Origin: Dehalococcoidia bacterium
Lineage (GTDB): Bacteria > Chloroflexota > Dehalococcoidia > Plut-88900
Assembly (NCBI GenBank): GCA_965249275.1
Contig: CBDFLQ010000006.1
Location: 256,001 to 320,000, forward strand
Length of the DNA: 64,000 nt
Direction of reading: 5' to 3'
Shown piece by piece: positions 17,809-38,387 of the stretch. Positions within the stretch are counted from its first letter, which is position 1. Every line of letters begins with the position of its first letter. The notes beneath the pieces were generated by a model, which saw only the letters and a program-made list of their open reading frames with translations, ran no database searches and was not told the origin of the DNA. Position numbers and translations under genes: made by a program.

Positions 17809-18120
17809 GTAGGGGCGACCAGCTGGTCGCCTTACCACGGTCTCTCGCGCCGTAAGGGCAAACCCTCGTGTATCCCTGGTACCGAGGGGCCGCTCACCCT
17901 GAGCGCCGTCGAAGGGTCGAGCGTGGGGACGGCCCACCACCGCAAATTCGTCGCGTCCCTAGAAGGCCCCCCCACCCCATCCCCTCTCCGTCATTCCGGC
18001 CGTCGAGAGCCGGAATCCATCCCCGGAGGCGGCCAGAGCGGGGCGTCCTGTCCCCTCTCCCTCAGATGGGAGAGGGCTAGAGCCTGCCCCGAGTCCCCCG
18101 AGGGGGTGAGGGTGATCCCA
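17809..18120 (+). repeat. Cluster of four REP types
   Basis: GTAGGGGCGACC..GGTCGCC; family B at 17890; GTCATTCCGGC..GCCGGAATCC at ~17990; CCCCTCTCCC-TCAGAT-GGGAGAGGG at ~18052. Confidence 0.8.
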
Positions 18121-18130
18121 CTTGGCCAAA

Positions 18131-18175
18131 AGTGACACGAACCCCTTGACTTGATGTGAACGTCTGTACTATATT
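18131..18175 (+). promoter_or_regulatory. sigma70-type promoter with LexA-like box (ncRNA copy 1)
   Basis: AGTGACA-N8-TTGACT (18146); -10 TACTAT or TATATT; GAACGTCTGTAC at 18158-18169 vs LexA consensus GAAC-N4-GTTC. Confidence 0.65.
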
Positions 18176-18179
18176 CACC

Positions 18180-18775
18180 CCCGATAGGCCAATCACCATT
18201 CTAAGATCAAAGGAGGAACCAAAAACCCAGGGAAGCCCACCCGACCCACCCGAGGACTCAACGCCTCAGCCCATCCCAACGGCCCTCGCGCAGGCCCGCG
18301 GCACAAGCAAACGCCGCCATCTCCTCACCCCACGGGTCCCGTGTACCCTTCCCTGACACCCAGGCGATGGAAGGCCCATCGACTCTAAGCAGCATGTAGG
18401 CTTGCGAGACCGGCCTACTCGACGCACCTCTCACCCGGCGCGTTCGAGTCAACGCTATGCGCATAGCCCGCGAATATACGGGGCCCTCCATTGCAGGGCT
18501 CGCCAGGGGGCTTCGCGCCCCCGGCTCTGACTCCACCGTCGTTCCCTTCGGAGATTCCCACCCCCAGCGGCGGAAGTTGAGTCGTACTCCCATCCCTCCG
18601 AGATGGTCGAGTAGCGTCTTGCGGACGAGACACCCCGCCTCTCTCGTCCGCCTCAGTAAAGACACGTGGGGTAATCGCAGGCTGGCCTCCCGCCCCTGCC
18701 CAAGAGTCCCGGACCTTCCGTCGCCTTCCCCCTCCAAAAAACAAACAACGAACCCAAACCCCACAACCGAATACC
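18180..18775 (+). ncRNA. Putative novel long structured ncRNA, copy 1 (~600 nt, ends estimated)
   Basis: Shares a 35-nt identical block, other conserved blocks, covarying long-range helices and the 3' tail with 37617-38280; a 4-nt indel between conserved blocks argues against a shared ORF. Confidence 0.7.
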
Positions 18776-18858
18776 CCCACCGATACGGCCCTATCCTGCT
18801 GGACAAGCGCACCGCGTTGACTACCCCACCCCCTACCCCCTAAAATTTACCTAAACCC

Positions 18859-20307
18859 ATGCAAGACAGATACGGCCTCCCCATCACCACGAATTCAGCC
18901 AAGGCCGCCGACCTTTTCGTCGAGGGCCTGGACCTCCTCCTTTCCATGAACATCGGCTCCTTGGAGCGCATTAGGGAAGCCGTCGAAGCTGACGACTCCT
19001 TCGCCACGGCCTACGCCACCCTCGCCTACCGCTACATGGTCGAAGGCAAGGTTAAAGAAGCACGAGAGAACATCTTACACGCCGAGGCCCGCGCCTCTGG
19101 CCTCACCCGCCGAGAGCGCCTCTACGTCGCCGTAATCGATGCCTATGTCCACAGTTCCGGCCCCCGAGCCCTTAGCCTGATGAAAGAGTATCTCTGGGAG
19201 TTCCCCAGGGACATACTCATACTCTACATAGCCAACAACCTGCTCTTCTATGGATGCAGCGGTGGCGGCTCCAAGAGTTATCCTGCAGACCAACTCGCCC
19301 TATGCAGTGAGGTGGCCTCTCACTACGGCGATGACTGGGCATTCCAGAGCCGCTATTCCTTCGCACACCACGAATCAGGTATTCTCGACGAGGCCCTTCG
19401 CCTCGCCGAGGCCTCTCTCAAGACACGTCCCGACAACGCCGACGCTTCCCATTCCGTCGCTCACGTCCTATTCGAAAGAGGCGCCTCCCCGGACGGAGCT
19501 CAATTCCTGGAAGAATGGACCAGGGACTACGACCGCCGAGCTCCCTTTTACGTCCACCTGGCCTGGCATTACTGCCTCTTCGAGCTCTCCCAAGGCCACT
19601 ACAACAAGGTCTTGGACCTTTACAACAGCCGCATTCAACCTGCCGTTGCCTCAGGGGACGGTGGGGCCCTCGCCGACGCCGCAGCCATCGTGTGGAGAAT
19701 GATGCTCTACTCGGACACAGTGCCTCAGATCGACTGGAAGGCACTCTGTTCCCTGGCCGAACCCTCCATCAGCACCGAGGGTACAGCCTACCGGGACGTC
19801 CACGCTGCCCTGGCCTTCGCCGGAGCTAACGATTGGGAGAAAATGACCGCTCTCCTTGACCGCTTCCAGGCCCGAGCCGCCTCCGGCGACACCCTCGCCT
19901 CCGAGATCATGGTCCCTCTTATGAAGGGCCTCCAACTCTTCGCCCACGAACGTCCTCAGGAATCCCTGGAATTGTTGGAACCTCTATTCGGCCCTGCAGT
20001 AATGGACCAGCTTGCCCGCGTTGGTGGCAGTCACGCCCAAAGGGAAGTGCTTGAGGACACCCTCGTAACCTGTTTCCTGGAAACGGAACAATTCGACAAG
20101 GCCAAGTCGATGCTCAACACCCGGCTCTCCCGCCGCCCCTCCCCCCGAGACCTCTTCTGGCTGGCCCGCGCGCAGACCGGTCTTGGCGACTCCGAGGCCG
20201 CCCAGCGCGACCTTGCACAAGCCAACGTCGAATGGACCAACTTCAACCATGACCCCGACTCCCCGGAACTGGCCCGTCTCCGCGCCTCTGTAGCAAGCCC
20301 CCGCTAG
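18859..20307 (+). CDS. TPR-repeat protein (TTC38-like)
   Basis: DRYGLPITT, HSVAHV, HLAWHYCL, LADAA, RVGGSHAQREV; own promoter TTGACT-N18-TAAAAT. Confidence 0.82.
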   Translation: MQDRYGLPITTNSAKAADLFVEGLDLLLSMNIGSLERIREAVEADDSFATAYATLAYRYMVEGKVKEARENILHAEARASGLTRRERLYVAVIDAYVHSSGPRALSLMKEYLWEFPRDILILYIANNLLFYGCSGGGSKSYPADQLALCSEVASHYGDDWAFQSRYSFAHHESGILDEALRLAEASLKTRPDNADASHSVAHVLFERGASPDGAQFLEEWTRDYDRRAPFYVHLAWHYCLFELSQGHYNKVLDLYNSRIQPAVASGDGGALADAAAIVWRMMLYSDTVPQIDWKALCSLAEPSISTEGTAYRDVHAALAFAGANDWEKMTALLDRFQARAASGDTLASEIMVPLMKGLQLFAHERPQESLELLEPLFGPAVMDQLARVGGSHAQREVLEDTLVTCFLETEQFDKAKSMLNTRLSRRPSPRDLFWLARAQTGLGDSEAAQRDLAQANVEWTNFNHDPDSPELARLRASVASPR

Positions 20308-37471: not shown

Positions 37472-37567
37472 AACTGAGTATCGCCTGGTTTATCGGCCCA
37501 TTTGACTGGTACCCTTGGGAGTATAGCATGGTGATAGATGTTCCCCCTGATCCCGTTCACATAGAGG

Positions 37568-37611
37568 AGTGACATATCCCTCTTGACTTTATAATACATG
37601 TGTTCTATTAT
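37568..37611 (+). promoter_or_regulatory. sigma70-type promoter with LexA-like box (ncRNA copy 2)
   Basis: AGTGACA-N8-TTGACT-N17-TATTAT; ATACATGTGTTC at 37594-37605. Confidence 0.7.
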
Positions 37612-37616
37612 TGGGC

Positions 37617-38280
37617 CAGTCTAGACCCGACACCCACCTTAAGGAGGTACCGCACAACCTAGGGAAGCCCACCCGACCCACCCGAGGACTCAACGTCTAA
37701 GCCCATCCCAAAGGGCGGCCCACAAGCCGTCCCACGGCTCAAGCGAACGCCGCCATCTCCTCTACCAAGGGCCCCGGCTATCCCTTCCCTGACCATCAGG
37801 CGATGGAAGACGCCCTGGTTCGCTAACGTTCCATGTGAGGCTCCTAACGGAGATGCCGCTCCTTCAAGCGGAATAGCGGTCGGATAGGCCCGGCGCCGAG
37901 GCCCTCTCGGTACACCGACTGCTCAATAAAGCCGGGAGCCGGTGGTCTACGCGCTCCGGGTCGCACCGGCAAACTTGGACACATTACGCCTGCAAGAGGC
38001 CCGGCATCGGACGCTGGACGGGCCTCCTTGCCGCCCTATAGCGGTGCAGCCAACCCCCGGAGTCGGACTCGGACCTGCTGGCCCTGAAGGTCCCTGCCCA
38101 TGTCCAGCGTATACAGGGCCACAGGCCGCAGCAGCGGCAAAAGCGGGCCGGGCGCCCTTGCCTCAGGGCGTCGGAGCACCCGAGGCACAGGAACAGGGGC
38201 AGCGTCCAGCAAGCGTCTTTCATCGCCTTCCCAAAACCCAACAGACAGAACTGAAACCGAAACCCCACAATCGAAGATGG
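37617..38280 (+). ncRNA. Putative novel long structured ncRNA, copy 2 (~660 nt, ends estimated)
   Basis: Paralog of 18180-18775; helices 37660-67/37784-91 and 37798-813/38213-228; tail AAACCCCACAATCGAA. Confidence 0.7.
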
Positions 38281-38387
38281 AACATCCGCCTCTGGAGGAC
38301 TGAAGAAAACGCCGGTGTGTCACTAATCTATTGAACGAATACACCCCCTTTCCCCTCCTCCCCTAACCCTGTTAACATTCTCGGCGC

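What the first reader, a model, noticed from the sequence alone, without database searches (positions are those of the whole stretch)
18180..18775. Candidate new family of long, free-standing structured RNAs: copy 1
Seen: this intergenic stretch and 37617-38280 share collinear blocks: AAGGAGG; a 35-nt identical block AGGGAAGCCCACCCGACCCACCCGAGGACTCAACG; AACGCCGCCATCTCCTC; CCCTTCCCTGAC; CAGGCGATGGAAG; TCGCCTTCCC; and the tail AAACCCCACAAYCGAA. CAGGGAAG (18228-35) pairs with CTTCCCTG (18348-55) and closes a conserved 5' domain. AGGCGATGGAAGGCCC (18362-77) pairs with GGACCTTCCGTCGCCT (18711-26), extended by GACTCT/AGAGTC, and closes a ~330-nt domain made of consecutive hairpins (e.g. GTAGGC/GCCTAC, GCTATGCGCATAGC, GGGGGC/GCCCCC, GCGGACGAGA/TCTCGTCCGC). 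The wobble pairs are G-U on the + strand, the same strand as the promoter. The spacer between two conserved blocks is 24 nt here and 28 nt in copy 2, so no reading frame is conserved. The downstream gene has its own promoter, so this is unlikely to be a leader. I cannot match it to tmRNA, RNase P, SRP, 6S, group I/II introns or a riboswitch. Inference: a multicopy ncRNA with a conserved platform and a variable structured cargo domain.
Basis: partly seen in the sequence, partly recalled or inferred. Interest (0 to 1): 0.92.

Follow-up and report, generated by a model that had tools for sequence, protein, structure and literature searches.

The report
Promoter-homing mobile element encoding structured RNA
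This stretch is one of about fifty copies per genome of a small jumping DNA element that carries its own promoter and a large folded non-coding RNA and lands precisely in front of other genes' promoters, a combination I could not find described.

Summary
The 5' domain of 18180-18775 occurs 54 times in this 2.9-Mb genome. A covariance model finds 23-68 copies in each of the 9 genomes of the genus. It finds none in 3 sister genera or in the 146 other class genomes sampled. Rfam has no match.

Each copy has a conserved sigma-70-type promoter, an invariant AAGGAGG with no start codon, and a constant about 165-nt domain. A closing helix encloses one of at least 10 interchangeable 250-480-nt cargo domains, followed by a C/A-rich tail. 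Fifteen copies of the cargo type of copy 1 support a + strand fold.

It is not just an RNA gene family; it is mobile DNA. Complete copies, including window copy 2 (37548-38343), have imperfect terminal inverted repeats (TG...CA) and 5-bp target duplications. Related genomes show clean empty sites. The right end lies exactly 5 bp upstream of a resident -35 box, and 30 of 35 flanks carry a -10 box at the right spacing.

No transposase partner was found, and the role of the RNA is inferred.

The parts
18113..18145 (+). Copy 1: probable diverged left terminal region (TGATCCCACTTGG...GTGACACGAACCCC)
   Evidence: TGATCCC and GTGACA match the canonical left repeat. In 37 copies without the outer repeat, homology between copies starts at ..AAAAGTGACAC. 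No target duplication could be resolved here.
18146..18175 (+). Copy 1: the element's own promoter (TTGACT, 18 nt, TATATT)
   Evidence: 2 promoter-like sites found against 0.1 expected; the -35 and -10 boxes are conserved in the 53 aligned copies while the spacer varies.
18210..18373 (+). Copy 1: constant 5' domain. It holds AAGGAGG at 18210-16, the 35-nt block at 18229-63 and GCCATCTCCTC at 18316-26.
   Evidence: 54 copies at 73.5-95% identity; invariant blocks; model R1.
18362..18377 (+). Copy 1: 5' strand of the closing helix
   Evidence: helix 10 has 14 pairs and 98.6% of cells paired; at least 14 of 18 pairs in 40 of 53 copies, against 4 of 53 with a shuffled strand.
18378..18710 (+). Copy 1: cargo domain. 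This cargo type has 4 copies in this genome.
   Evidence: One search gives the cargo clusters. Searches use 15 copies from 5 genomes: 96.7% of cells paired, and 14 pairs with changes on both sides.
18711..18726 (+). Copy 1: 3' strand of the closing helix
18727..18775 (+). Copy 1: C/A-rich, G/U-poor tail
   Evidence: GC skew -0.64 and AT skew +0.54 to +0.63; the tail is conserved.
18776..18811 (+). Copy 1: probable degenerate right end (..CTGGACAAGCGCA), 5 nt before the resident -35 box
   Evidence: Read directly: 8 of 13 letters match the canonical ..CCGAACGAGTACA. Homology to relatives that lack the element resumes at about 18823. This part is inference.
18817..18846 (+). Resident promoter of the downstream gene (ORF 18859-20307)
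   Evidence: The promoter is kept in two relatives that lack the element.
37543..37547 (.). Copy 2: left target-site duplication, CCCCC
37548..37575 (+). Copy 2: left terminal inverted repeat (TGATCCCGTTCACATAGAG..GTGACAT)
37583..37611 (+). Copy 2: the element's own promoter (TTGACT, 17 nt, TATTAT)
37641..37813 (+). Copy 2: constant 5' domain, including the 5' strand of the closing helix (37798-37813)
37814..38212 (+). Copy 2: cargo domain of another type (cluster of 9 copies)
38213..38314 (+). Copy 2: 3' strand of the closing helix (38213-28), the C/A-rich tail and the extra tail module
38315..38343 (+). Copy 2: right terminal inverted repeat (GTGTGTCAC..TTGAACGAATACA)
38344..38348 (.). Copy 2: right target-site duplication, CCCCC

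Best explanation
18180-18775 is the transcribed body of one copy of a genus-specific family of non-coding mobile DNA elements of about 0.7-0.8 kb.

Shown:
- The element has terminal inverted repeats (TG...CA) and makes 5-bp target duplications. These are the marks of a DDE-type transposase acting in trans.
- It inserts in one orientation, with its right end exactly 5 bp upstream of the -35 hexamer of a resident promoter. The resident promoter stays intact.
- Its left end holds a conserved sigma-70-type promoter that points inward.
- What follows the promoter has the conservation pattern of a structured RNA of about 550-650 nt. It has a short leader and an invariant AAGGAGG with no start codon. 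It has a constant domain of about 165 nt with invariant blocks. A closing helix encloses one of at least 10 exchangeable cargo domains, and a C/A-rich unstructured tail follows.

Inferred:
- The RNA is a discrete product. I think it ends in or after the C-rich, G-poor tail by Rho-dependent termination. There is no intrinsic terminator, and Rho is present in the genus.
- The 5' AAGGAGG stabilises the RNA or closes the fold by pairing with CCUCC near the 3' end.
- The constant domain is a protein-binding platform that acts in trans.
- Copies that lack the outer repeats still keep the promoter and the fold. I therefore think the RNA, and not only mobility, is under selection.

My odds: mobile-element identity about 0.85; structured and transcribed RNA about 0.7; discrete trans-acting product rather than leader about 0.4.
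For: Copy number and range:
- BLASTN finds 54 copies in this genome.
- Model R1 finds 54, 42, 58, 23, 68, 52, 44, 41 and 42 hits in the 9 genomes of the genus, and 0 in 3 sister genera.
- In the class sample, only 5 of 151 genomes have hits, and all 5 are of the genus.

Mobility:
- A relative carries an 875-bp insert (L030) and another a 760-bp insert (L021) at places where this genome is uninterrupted. Both inserts have the same termini. The L021 insert has a perfect TTTCG duplication.
- 16 of the 53 copies examined in this genome have both repeats. By my reading, the 5-bp duplication is perfect in 10 of these 16 and has one mismatch in 3 of 16.
- In a second set of 16 pairs, 8 duplications are identical and 5 have one mismatch. 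Shuffled pairing gives a mean of 0.9 identical.
- The copy 1 locus is filled in two close relatives (92-93% identity). It lacks the element in two others, one of which has flanks 92-94% identical.

Target (35 unique right flanks):
- 18 have at least 5 of 6 letters of TTGACA at offset 5, and 0 have this at any other offset from 0 to 12.
- 30 of 35 have a -10-like box 16-19 nt further on. Shuffles give a mean of 1.2 and a maximum of 5.
- 8 of the 10 flanks with a weak -35 box still have the -10 box.

Promoter and RNA:
- The -35 and -10 boxes, AAGGAGG and blocks such as GAGGACTCAACG....AGCCCATCCC are invariant or nearly so.
- The fold of 15 copies has 96.7% of cells paired, against 38-47% when the partners are slid. 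It has 14 pairs with changes on both sides, against 0-4 slid and 7.6 +/- 1.5 shuffled, with 0 of 500 shuffles reaching the observed value.
- There are 101 G-U cells against 21 A-C cells.
- The distal part of the closing helix co-varies between cargo types.
- There is no + strand intrinsic terminator.
- The Rho RNA-binding domain is found in 5 of 5 relatives searched.
- Contigs of one metatranscriptome library lie on 18232-18725. This is only a weak hint, because DNA can be present in such a library.
Against: - No autonomous partner with the same repeats was found. The three extra left-repeat sites in this genome are one solo remnant, one site 540 nt upstream of a copy that I did not inspect, and one weak match that I read as lying in coding sequence.
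- The only insertion sequence that shares the target rule has unrelated ends. It occurs in 3 of 9 genomes.
- Copy 1 itself and 36 other copies lack the outer left repeat. No target duplication could be resolved for them.
- Transcription, RNA ends and Rho termination are not shown. Only contigs were available.
- The consensus structure was derived from the same alignment on which it was counted. The 15 sequences are related and exchange segments. The covariation figures are therefore inflated by an unknown amount.
- Most helices of the constant domain never vary, so they are untested.
- The next gene lies on the same strand in 42 of 54 cases, and no terminator lies between. This fits a leader equally well.
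Confidence: 0.7

Rival explanations
1. The element is a mobile extra promoter with a long structured 5' leader. It exists to read into the resident gene. The 600-nt RNA is then the upstream part of an alternative mRNA and acts in cis, on stability, translation or a common regulator. This would spread one control module to about 40 unrelated operons.
For: - The downstream gene is on the same strand in 42 of 54 copies, and the upstream gene is divergent in 37 of 53 (from my own crude gene caller).
- There is no + strand intrinsic terminator in either window copy.
- The element always sits directly in front of a gene's promoter.
- The C/A-rich tail could serve as an unstructured ribosome landing region. 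That idea is recalled knowledge, not tested here.
Against: - The fixed orientation follows from the target rule itself. An unrelated insertion sequence shows the same orientation in 13 of 13 insertions.
- Every target gene keeps its own intact promoter.
- In 12 of 54 copies the next gene is convergent, yet these copies are conserved like the rest.
- Downstream genes share no function; they fall into 42 clusters.
- The predicted fold brings the 5' and 3' ends together, as in stable stand-alone RNAs.
Confidence: 0.3
2. It is purely selfish DNA. The promoter is the relic of an ancestral transposase promoter in the left end, and AAGGAGG is its ribosome-binding site. Conservation reflects recent spread and gene conversion between copies. 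On this view the RNA has no function.
For: - The inward promoter in the left end followed by a Shine-Dalgarno-like motif matches the usual layout of insertion sequences. This is recalled knowledge.
- Copies are mosaic and exchange segments.
- Many pairs in the constant domain never vary, so they are untested.
Against: - Copies differ by up to 27% from copy 1. The spacers vary, yet the -35 and -10 boxes, AAGGAGG and a 26-nt block stay invariant or nearly so across the 53 copies aligned here and 64 copies from this and related genomes.
- Changes on both sides keep the helices.
- Copies with decayed ends keep the promoter and the fold.
- No copy has a start codon after AAGGAGG.
Confidence: 0.12
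3. One reading: ordinary chromosomal genes for a free-standing non-coding RNA family that multiplied by duplication and are not mobile.
For: - Each copy has its own promoter and a conserved fold, and there is no Rfam match.
- 37 of 54 copies lack the outer left repeat.
Against: - Copies have terminal inverted repeats and 5-bp duplications.
- Base-precise empty sites exist in relatives.
- Insertion is at a fixed offset from -35 boxes.
- The copy 1 locus itself is filled in some close species and lacks the element in others.
Confidence: 0.05
4. It spreads through its RNA, as a SINE-like retroelement or an ORF-less intron.
For: It has its own promoter, a highly structured RNA and an A/C-rich 3' tail.
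Against: - The promoter lies upstream of the transcript, yet it is part of the mobile unit.
- The inverted repeats and the fixed 5-bp duplication point to DNA transposition.
- No intron family of Rfam matched.
Confidence: 0.03

Closest known systems
Bacterial MITEs, such as the Neisseria Correia elements and ERIC, RUP and BOX elements. This is recalled knowledge, plus the abstract of PMC3184786 as shown in the listing.
   Same: Both are non-coding, non-autonomous and multicopy, and lie between genes. Both have terminal inverted repeats and target duplications. Some carry promoters and are co-transcribed into folded RNA. BOX elements are modular.
   Different: This element is several times longer (0.66-0.88 kb). 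It carries a complete, conserved inward promoter and a modular RNA of about 600 nt whose helices are kept by compensatory changes. It has at least 10 cargo types. It inserts at a fixed distance from resident promoters. No partner transposase was identified.
Insertion sequences with their own structured RNA: IS110 family bridge RNA and ISPpu9 with its sRNA ssr9 (abstract of bioRxiv 10.1101/2025.01.17.633520 as shown in the listing), and IS200/IS605 omega RNA (recalled).
   Same: A mobile element is coupled to a conserved non-coding RNA. In ISPpu9, separate copies of the sRNA also occur without the transposase.
   Different: Those RNAs sit beside a recombinase or nuclease gene. As I recall, those elements have no inverted repeats and make no target duplication. 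Here no protein gene is attached, and the element shows DDE-type marks.
Large structured bacterial non-coding RNAs: OLE, GOLLD, ROOL, HEARO and raiA (recalled; all are curated in Rfam).
   Same: They are similar in size, have many helices, and most have no known function.
   Different: No Rfam model matched, either at gathering score or at E <= 10. This family has 23-68 copies per genome, is restricted to one genus among those searched, and is carried on mobile DNA.
IS481-family insertion sequences. Their features are recalled: DDE 'rve' transposase, ends starting TGT, and 4-15-bp duplications.
   Same: This element has TG...CA ends and 5-bp duplications. A distantly IS481-like insertion sequence in three genomes of the genus obeys the same target rule in 13 of 13 insertions.
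   Different: That insertion sequence has unrelated ends and is absent from 6 of 9 genomes. The abundant 394-aa rve-type insertion sequence in this genome also has unrelated ends; I call it IS481-like from its sequence only, and no family search was run on it.
Ty3 and Ty1 retrotransposons of yeast, which integrate at fixed positions at RNA polymerase III promoters (recalled).
   Same: Both integrate at a fixed distance from a promoter, in a place that spares the gene.
   Different: Those are eukaryotic LTR retroelements that tether to transcription factors. No bacterial counterpart is known to me. The mechanism here is unknown.

Membership tests
MITE / non-autonomous DDE transposon | Terminal inverted repeats | tested here: met
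   16 of the 53 copies examined in this genome have both repeats. Window copy 2 has them at 37548-37575 and 38315-38343. The repeat is an imperfect repeat of about 28 nt. For copy 1 only a diverged left end (18113-) and a weak right end were seen, so that copy is inconclusive.
MITE / non-autonomous DDE transposon | Target-site duplication of fixed length | tested here: met
   The duplication is 5 bp. By my reading it is perfect in 10 of 16 pairs, has one mismatch in 3 of 16 and is absent in 3 of 16. In the set, 8 of 16 are identical and 5 of 16 have one mismatch, against a shuffled mean of 0.9. Two of the perfect pairs lie in duplicated contigs and are not independent.
MITE / non-autonomous DDE transposon | Filled and empty sites with base-precise junctions | tested here: met
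   L030 and L021 compared with uninterrupted sites in this genome. The copy 1 locus is filled in 2 relatives and lacks the element in 2 relatives.
MITE / non-autonomous DDE transposon | No coding capacity | tested here: met
   There is no start codon after AAGGAGG. Indels of 1-2 nt occur throughout. The only blastx hits are to my own over-called ORFs, plus one weak hit at 3e-5.
MITE / non-autonomous DDE transposon | An autonomous relative with the same ends | tested here: inconclusive
   None was found in this genome, which is 87% complete, nor in the loci held. Whole-genome scans of the relatives for repeat pairs were not possible with these tools.
Any Rfam family | Score at or above the gathering threshold | tested here: not met
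   0 matches in the window. At E <= 10 on 18100-18900 there were only two chance-level matches, of 13.7 and 12.9 bits, on the opposite strand.
Riboswitch or cis-regulatory leader | Association with one functional class of downstream genes, and an expression platform | tested here: not met
   The 54 downstream proteins fall into 42 clusters, the largest of 6. By my reading of their first residues they include uvrA-, leuS-, argC- and def-like genes. There is no + strand terminator.
Bridge RNA or omega RNA of IS110 / IS200-605 | An adjacent recombinase or TnpB gene, and an element without inverted repeats or target duplication | tested here: not met
   There is no ORF in the element, and the neighbouring genes are unrelated. 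Inverted repeats and duplications are present.
Stand-alone small or large RNA gene | Own promoter and a defined 3' end | tested here: inconclusive
   The promoter is present. There is no intrinsic terminator. Rho termination at the C-rich tail is plausible. The RNA ends cannot be tested with contigs.

The most novel reading that the evidence does not exclude
The RNA is part of the transposition machinery or of promoter recognition. On this reading a DDE-type transposase, or RNA polymerase bound at the promoter, is steered to the upstream edge of sigma-70 promoters. It would do so with the help of the element's own structured RNA, or by sensing promoter architecture rather than the TTGAC letters alone. 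In support, 8 of 10 targets with a weak -35 box still have a -10 box at the right spacing. This would be a bacterial counterpart of promoter-tethered integration in yeast. It would also make the element a natural vehicle that places a modular RNA 'cargo' in front of chosen genes.
Probability: 0.15. Interest if true: 0.95.

Novelty: new variant of a known kind. Interest (0 to 1): 0.8.

Why it matters
Three things would matter if this holds.

1. It would be a new large structured RNA class. It has a constant platform, a closing helix and at least 10 interchangeable cargo domains. At 23-68 copies per genome it is among the most repeated features of these uncultured Dehalococcoidia.

2. Insertion is exact to the base at the upstream edge of resident promoters, and an unrelated insertion sequence of the same genus follows the same rule. 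I could not find promoter-directed transposition of this precision described in bacteria. It could be tested directly with a mini-element in a laboratory host.

3. It warns that 'novel multicopy non-coding RNAs' found by eye can be payloads of mobile DNA. Annotation pipelines would currently leave about 1.3% of this genome blank.

Tried and rejected
Known RNA family: rejected.

Protein or leader-peptide gene: rejected. There is no start codon after AAGGAGG, the indels do not keep a frame, and variation is not codon-like. The long ORFs on both strands are not conserved.

Regulon leader: rejected, because the downstream genes are unrelated.

Cargo as captured gene pieces or as antisense to other loci: rejected.
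- blastn hits outside the elements are a small dispersed repeat and a few partial copies.
- blastx hits are only to my own over-called ORFs, plus one weak hit.

L084, titled a delta-proteobacterium MAG: a chance match of the 19 specified bases inside a coding region.

Partner transposase: not found.
- The abundant 1.36-kb insertion sequence of this genome has unrelated ends and sits in a REP-like hairpin.
- The 1.3-kb insertion sequence first seen in L060 (423 aa) scores 36 bits on Pfam rve. It scores 50 bits on the NCBIfam IS481 model, below the cut-off of 224.
- That insertion sequence shares the target rule but has unrelated ends. It occurs in 3 of 9 genomes and has no paralogues at E <= 1e-5.

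Column-pair covariation on a plain MAFFT alignment of 126 5' domains gave only one co-varying helix, GGGAA/TTCCC. The rest is too conserved or too gappy to judge.

RNA-seq:
- Only contigs could be laid, so starts, ends, strand and level cannot be read.
- The one RNA library (X20) has no contig on the downstream gene (18772-19575).
- X24 holds next to nothing.

The Rho RNA-binding domain was not found in this genome. That genome is 87% complete, and the domain was found in 5 of 5 relatives.

Not available or not seen:
- Supplementary files of papers were not consulted.
Boundaries of the copies without the outer repeat, and a genome-wide tally of filled against empty matching sites, were therefore not done.
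Full report
**Observation.**
- The 35-nt block occurs exactly twice in the window, with none in 100 shuffles.
- Promoter-like sites precede both copies: 18146-18175 (TTGACT, 18 nt, TATATT) and 37583-37611.
- The downstream gene of copy 1 has its own promoter-like site at 18817-18846.
- Rfam gives nothing at gathering score on the window. On 18100-18900 it gives only two chance-level matches, on the other strand.

**Scale.**
- The 164-nt 5' domain (18210-18373) has 54 full copies in the window's 2.9-Mb genome, which is 87% complete and in 7 contigs. Identity to copy 1 is 73.5-95%. One copy is split by an insertion.
- BLASTN finds the family in 8 of 8 other species of the genus. It finds none in 3 other genera of the family or in 29 genomes of other families of the class.
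- I built a covariance model of the 5' domain from 64 copies (R1, 175 positions, 21 pairs). It gives 54, 42, 58, 23, 68, 52, 44, 41 and 42 hits in the nine genomes of the genus and none in the three sister genera.
- In a sample of 151 genomes from 111 genera of the class, the model hits only the five genomes of the genus that were in the sample. That search used stricter filters and scored 18 candidates per genome.
Of these, 77 lie in six chromosomes titled 'Dehalococcoidia bacterium'. The other is a chance match inside a coding region.

**Anatomy.** I aligned 53 copies from -75 to +215 and summarised them. In order, each copy shows:
- a conserved CCCCTTGAC -35 box;
- a spacer that varies and falls into about four types;
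- a conserved -10 box;
- a short leader with a type-specific palindrome;
- an invariant AAGGAGG with no start codon after it;
- a constant domain with invariant blocks (GAGGACTCAACG....AGCCCATCCC, GGC.CAAGC, GCCATCTCCTC, GGCGATGG).

After GGCGATGG the copies diverge into discrete cargo types. Clustering gives groups of 13, 12, 9, 6, 4 (the type of copy 1), 3, 2, 2, 1 and 1, with lengths of 250-480 nt.

A 3' strand that pairs with GGCGATGGAAG... closes the cargo. At least 14 of 18 pairs form in 40 of 53 copies, against 4 of 53 when the 5' strand is shuffled. The distal part of this helix differs between cargo types in a compensating way: GGTCC/GGACC, GACGC/GCGTC and GAAGCCCT/AGGGCCTC.

A C/A-rich, G/U-poor tail follows, with GC skew -0.64 and AT skew about +0.6.

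Promoter type, 5'-domain variant and cargo type occur in different combinations. Copies at matching places in different species differ by whole segments. The copies therefore recombine.

**Structure.** I aligned fifteen copies of the cargo type of copy 1, taken from five genomes at 72-93% identity.
- RNAalifold gives 108 pairs.
- On this structure 96.7% of cells are standard pairs, against 38-47% when the partners are slid by 1-3 columns.
- 14 pairs have changes on both sides, against 0-4 when slid and 7.6 +/- 1.5 in shuffles. None of 500 shuffles reaches the observed value.
- There are 101 G-U cells against 21 A-C cells. The same pairs would be 96.7% formed on the + strand and 91.7% on the other strand.

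Caveats: the structure was derived from the alignment on which it was counted. The sequences are related and mosaic. Most helices of the constant domain never vary, so they are neither supported nor contradicted.

**It is mobile DNA.** The next gene lies on the same strand in 42 of 54 copies, and the previous gene is divergent in 37 of 53. These counts come from my own crude codon-usage gene caller. The downstream proteins are unrelated: they form 42 clusters, the largest of 6. By my reading of their first residues they include uvrA-, leuS-, argC-, ribF-, proA-, lgt- and def-like genes.

I compared 80 elements in loci from relatives with this genome. Two are clean insertions into sequence that is uninterrupted here: 875 bp in L030 and 760 bp in L021.
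- Both inserts start TGATC(C/T)CGTTCA.ATAGAG..GTGACAT.
- Both end GTG.C.CTAATC..CCGAACGAGT(A/G)CA. Together these ends form an imperfect inverted repeat of about 28 nt with TG...CA tips.
- L021 has a perfect 5-bp duplication (TTTCG).

In this genome 16 of the 53 copies examined have both repeats. Nine more have only the right one. By my reading, the 5 nt on either side are identical in 10 of the 16 pairs, differ by one letter in 3 and do not match in 3. Two of the perfect pairs lie in contigs that duplicate each other. In a second set that mixes this genome and the loci, 8 of 16 pairs are identical and 5 differ by one letter. Shuffled pairing gives 0.9 identical on average.

Window copy 2 is a complete element. 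It runs from 37548 to 38343 (796 bp) and is flanked by CCCCC at 37543-47 and 38344-48.

The locus of copy 1 is filled in two relatives (92-93% identity over 3.5 kb). It lacks the element in two others. One of these has flanks 92-94% identical, and both keep the gene's own promoter.

Copy 1 belongs to the 37 copies without the outer left repeat.
- Its left side keeps TGATCCC...GTGACAC (18113-18145).
- Its right side..CTGGACAAGCGCA (to 18811), resembles the canonical end in 8 of 13 letters and lies 5 nt before its -35 box. That is my reading.
- No duplication could be resolved for it.

**Target.** I collected 35 unique right-end flanks.
- 18 have at least 5 of 6 letters of TTGACA exactly at offset 5, and none at any other offset from 0 to 12.
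- 23 have TTG at offset 5. One has it at offset 4 and none elsewhere.
- 30 have a -10-like hexamer 16-19 nt further on. Shuffles give a mean of 1.2 and a maximum of 5.
- Of the 10 flanks with a weak -35 hexamer, 8 still have the -10 box at that distance.

The element therefore lands in one orientation, 5 bp upstream of the -35 box of real promoters, and leaves them intact.

An unrelated 1.3-kb insertion sequence follows the same rule. It encodes a 423-aa DDE 'rve' transposase that is only distantly IS481-like. It has 13 full copies in three genomes of the genus.
- All 13 sit with the same end next to a TTGAC box. Where I worked through the junction, a 5-bp duplication (ACCCC, or CCCCC/CCCTC) separates that end from the box.
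- 10 sit in the promoters of RNA elements.
- One sits at an ordinary gene's promoter.
- Two sit in a second, different promoter-bearing repeat.

Its ends are unlike those of the RNA element. It is absent from six of the nine genomes and has no paralogues at E <= 1e-5. It is therefore not the mobiliser, but it shows that this target choice is a property of transposition in this genus.

No autonomous element with the RNA element's ends was found. The three other left-repeat sites in this genome are:
- a solo remnant fused to the groES promoter;
- one site 540 nt upstream of a copy, which I did not inspect;
- one weak match that I read as lying in coding sequence.

**Expression.**
- There is no + strand intrinsic terminator in either window copy.
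- The Rho RNA-binding domain is present in 5 of 5 relatives searched. It was not found in this incomplete genome.
- Contigs of one metatranscriptome library lie on 18232-18725 at 85-97% identity. Contigs cannot show strand, ends or level, and DNA can be present in such a library. This is only a weak hint.

**How it most likely works.**

Shown:
- It is non-coding mobile DNA with DDE-type marks.
- It is directed to the upstream edge of promoters.
- It carries a conserved inward promoter and a conserved, modular, + strand fold.

Inferred:
- It is mobilised in trans by an unidentified DDE transposase.
- The RNA is made from the element's own promoter as a discrete product that ends at the C-rich tail through Rho.
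- AAGGAGG stabilises the RNA or closes the fold by pairing with CCUCC near the 3' end (helix 1, which hardly varies).
- The constant domain is a platform for a protein.

Copies with decayed ends keep the promoter and the fold. For that reason I think the RNA is selected for itself.

The main rival is that the element is a mobile upstream promoter with a long leader that reads into the resident gene. The data at hand cannot separate the two.

**Comparison and novelty.**
- As mobile DNA it meets the defining features of a MITE, except that no partner is known and it is unusually long.
- It fails membership of every Rfam family, of riboswitch-type leaders, and of recombinase-linked guide RNAs.
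- My searches found no description. There were 0 papers with Dehalococcoidia plus MITE wording. Broader searches on MITEs with structured RNA, on IS481 target sites at promoters, and on structured RNAs in Dehalococcoidia returned nothing relevant in the listings. One recent preprint on non-coding sequence space mentions Chloroflexota only for a tandem-repeat cluster (passage seen).
- I rate it a new variant of a known kind, with two unusual features: the RNA payload and base-exact promoter homing.

Noticed in passing
Loci L112-L125 (also L033, L050, L060:3338-4646): A 1.3-kb insertion sequence with a 423-aa rve transposase, only distantly IS481-like. It has 11 full copies at 99% identity in one relative and one each in two others. 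All 13 sit with the same end next to a TTGAC -35 box. Where I worked through the junction, a 5-bp duplication lies between that end and the box. Most of them sit inside the promoters of the RNA elements.
   Followed up: yes
L118 and L119, downstream of the insertion sequence: A second, different promoter-bearing repeat. It has the same left-end design (GTGACATAACCCC, then TTGACC...TGCTATATT) but another transcribed body (..CTAATCA(A)GGAAAGG..GGAGTCCCATGAGTCGCA..). It may be a sister family of RNA elements.
   Followed up: no
G000:C6:928812-928830 (minus strand, outside the window); also L041: A solo left terminal repeat of the element is fused to the groES promoter, which carries a CIRCE-like inverted repeat (TTAGCACTC-N9-GAGTGCTAA). 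It is conserved in a relative. It looks like a deletion between the element's own -35 box and the target's -35 box.
   Followed up: partly
Window 17960-18110: Other short intergenic repeats lie just upstream of copy 1: a hairpin, GTCATTCCGGCCGTCGAGAGCCGGAATCCATCCCC, and CCTGTCCCCTCTCCCTCAGATGGGAGAGGG. In the DNA runs their summed contig depth is tens of times that of the neighbouring gene. They recur upstream of many copies.
   Followed up: partly
G000:C7:459473-460831 and at least 7 other places: A 1.36-kb insertion sequence with a 394-aa rve transposase, which I call IS481-like from its sequence only; no family search was run on it. It has at least 8 copies at over 99% identity. In the one copy I inspected it is inserted in the REP-like hairpin CCCCTCTCCCTC.GATGGGAGAGGGG, next to an RNA element. 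The other copies share the same flank at their start, so they seem to sit in the same repeat.
   Followed up: partly
L036, L067, L079, L087: In one relative, the core of the 5' domain occurs twice, 85 nt apart, within single elements. This is a tandem partial duplication of the constant domain. Model hits in that genome are also the most numerous (68) and the weakest.
   Followed up: no
L023:4190-4250, L078, and downstream of G000 copy C5_276359: A repeated terminator-like hairpin module, (..ATTGAACTAG)GG.AGAGGTTGGCGC...GCGCCAACCTCT.CC followed by a T-rich run. It is found next to several elements, on either side.
   Followed up: no
G000 contigs C3 and C4 against C6:162650-171632 and C7:583783-592579: Two small contigs duplicate chromosomal segments at 92-96% identity. 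They are probably a second strain in the bin. Copies C4_6669 and C7_586189 are therefore not independent.
   Followed up: no
L102 (a relative's site that lacks the element, at the copy 1 locus): The short intergenic region there contains AAAAGCGACAC and CAACCGAAAC, which resemble the left end and the tail of the element. It may be an internally deleted remnant rather than a site that was never occupied.
   Followed up: no
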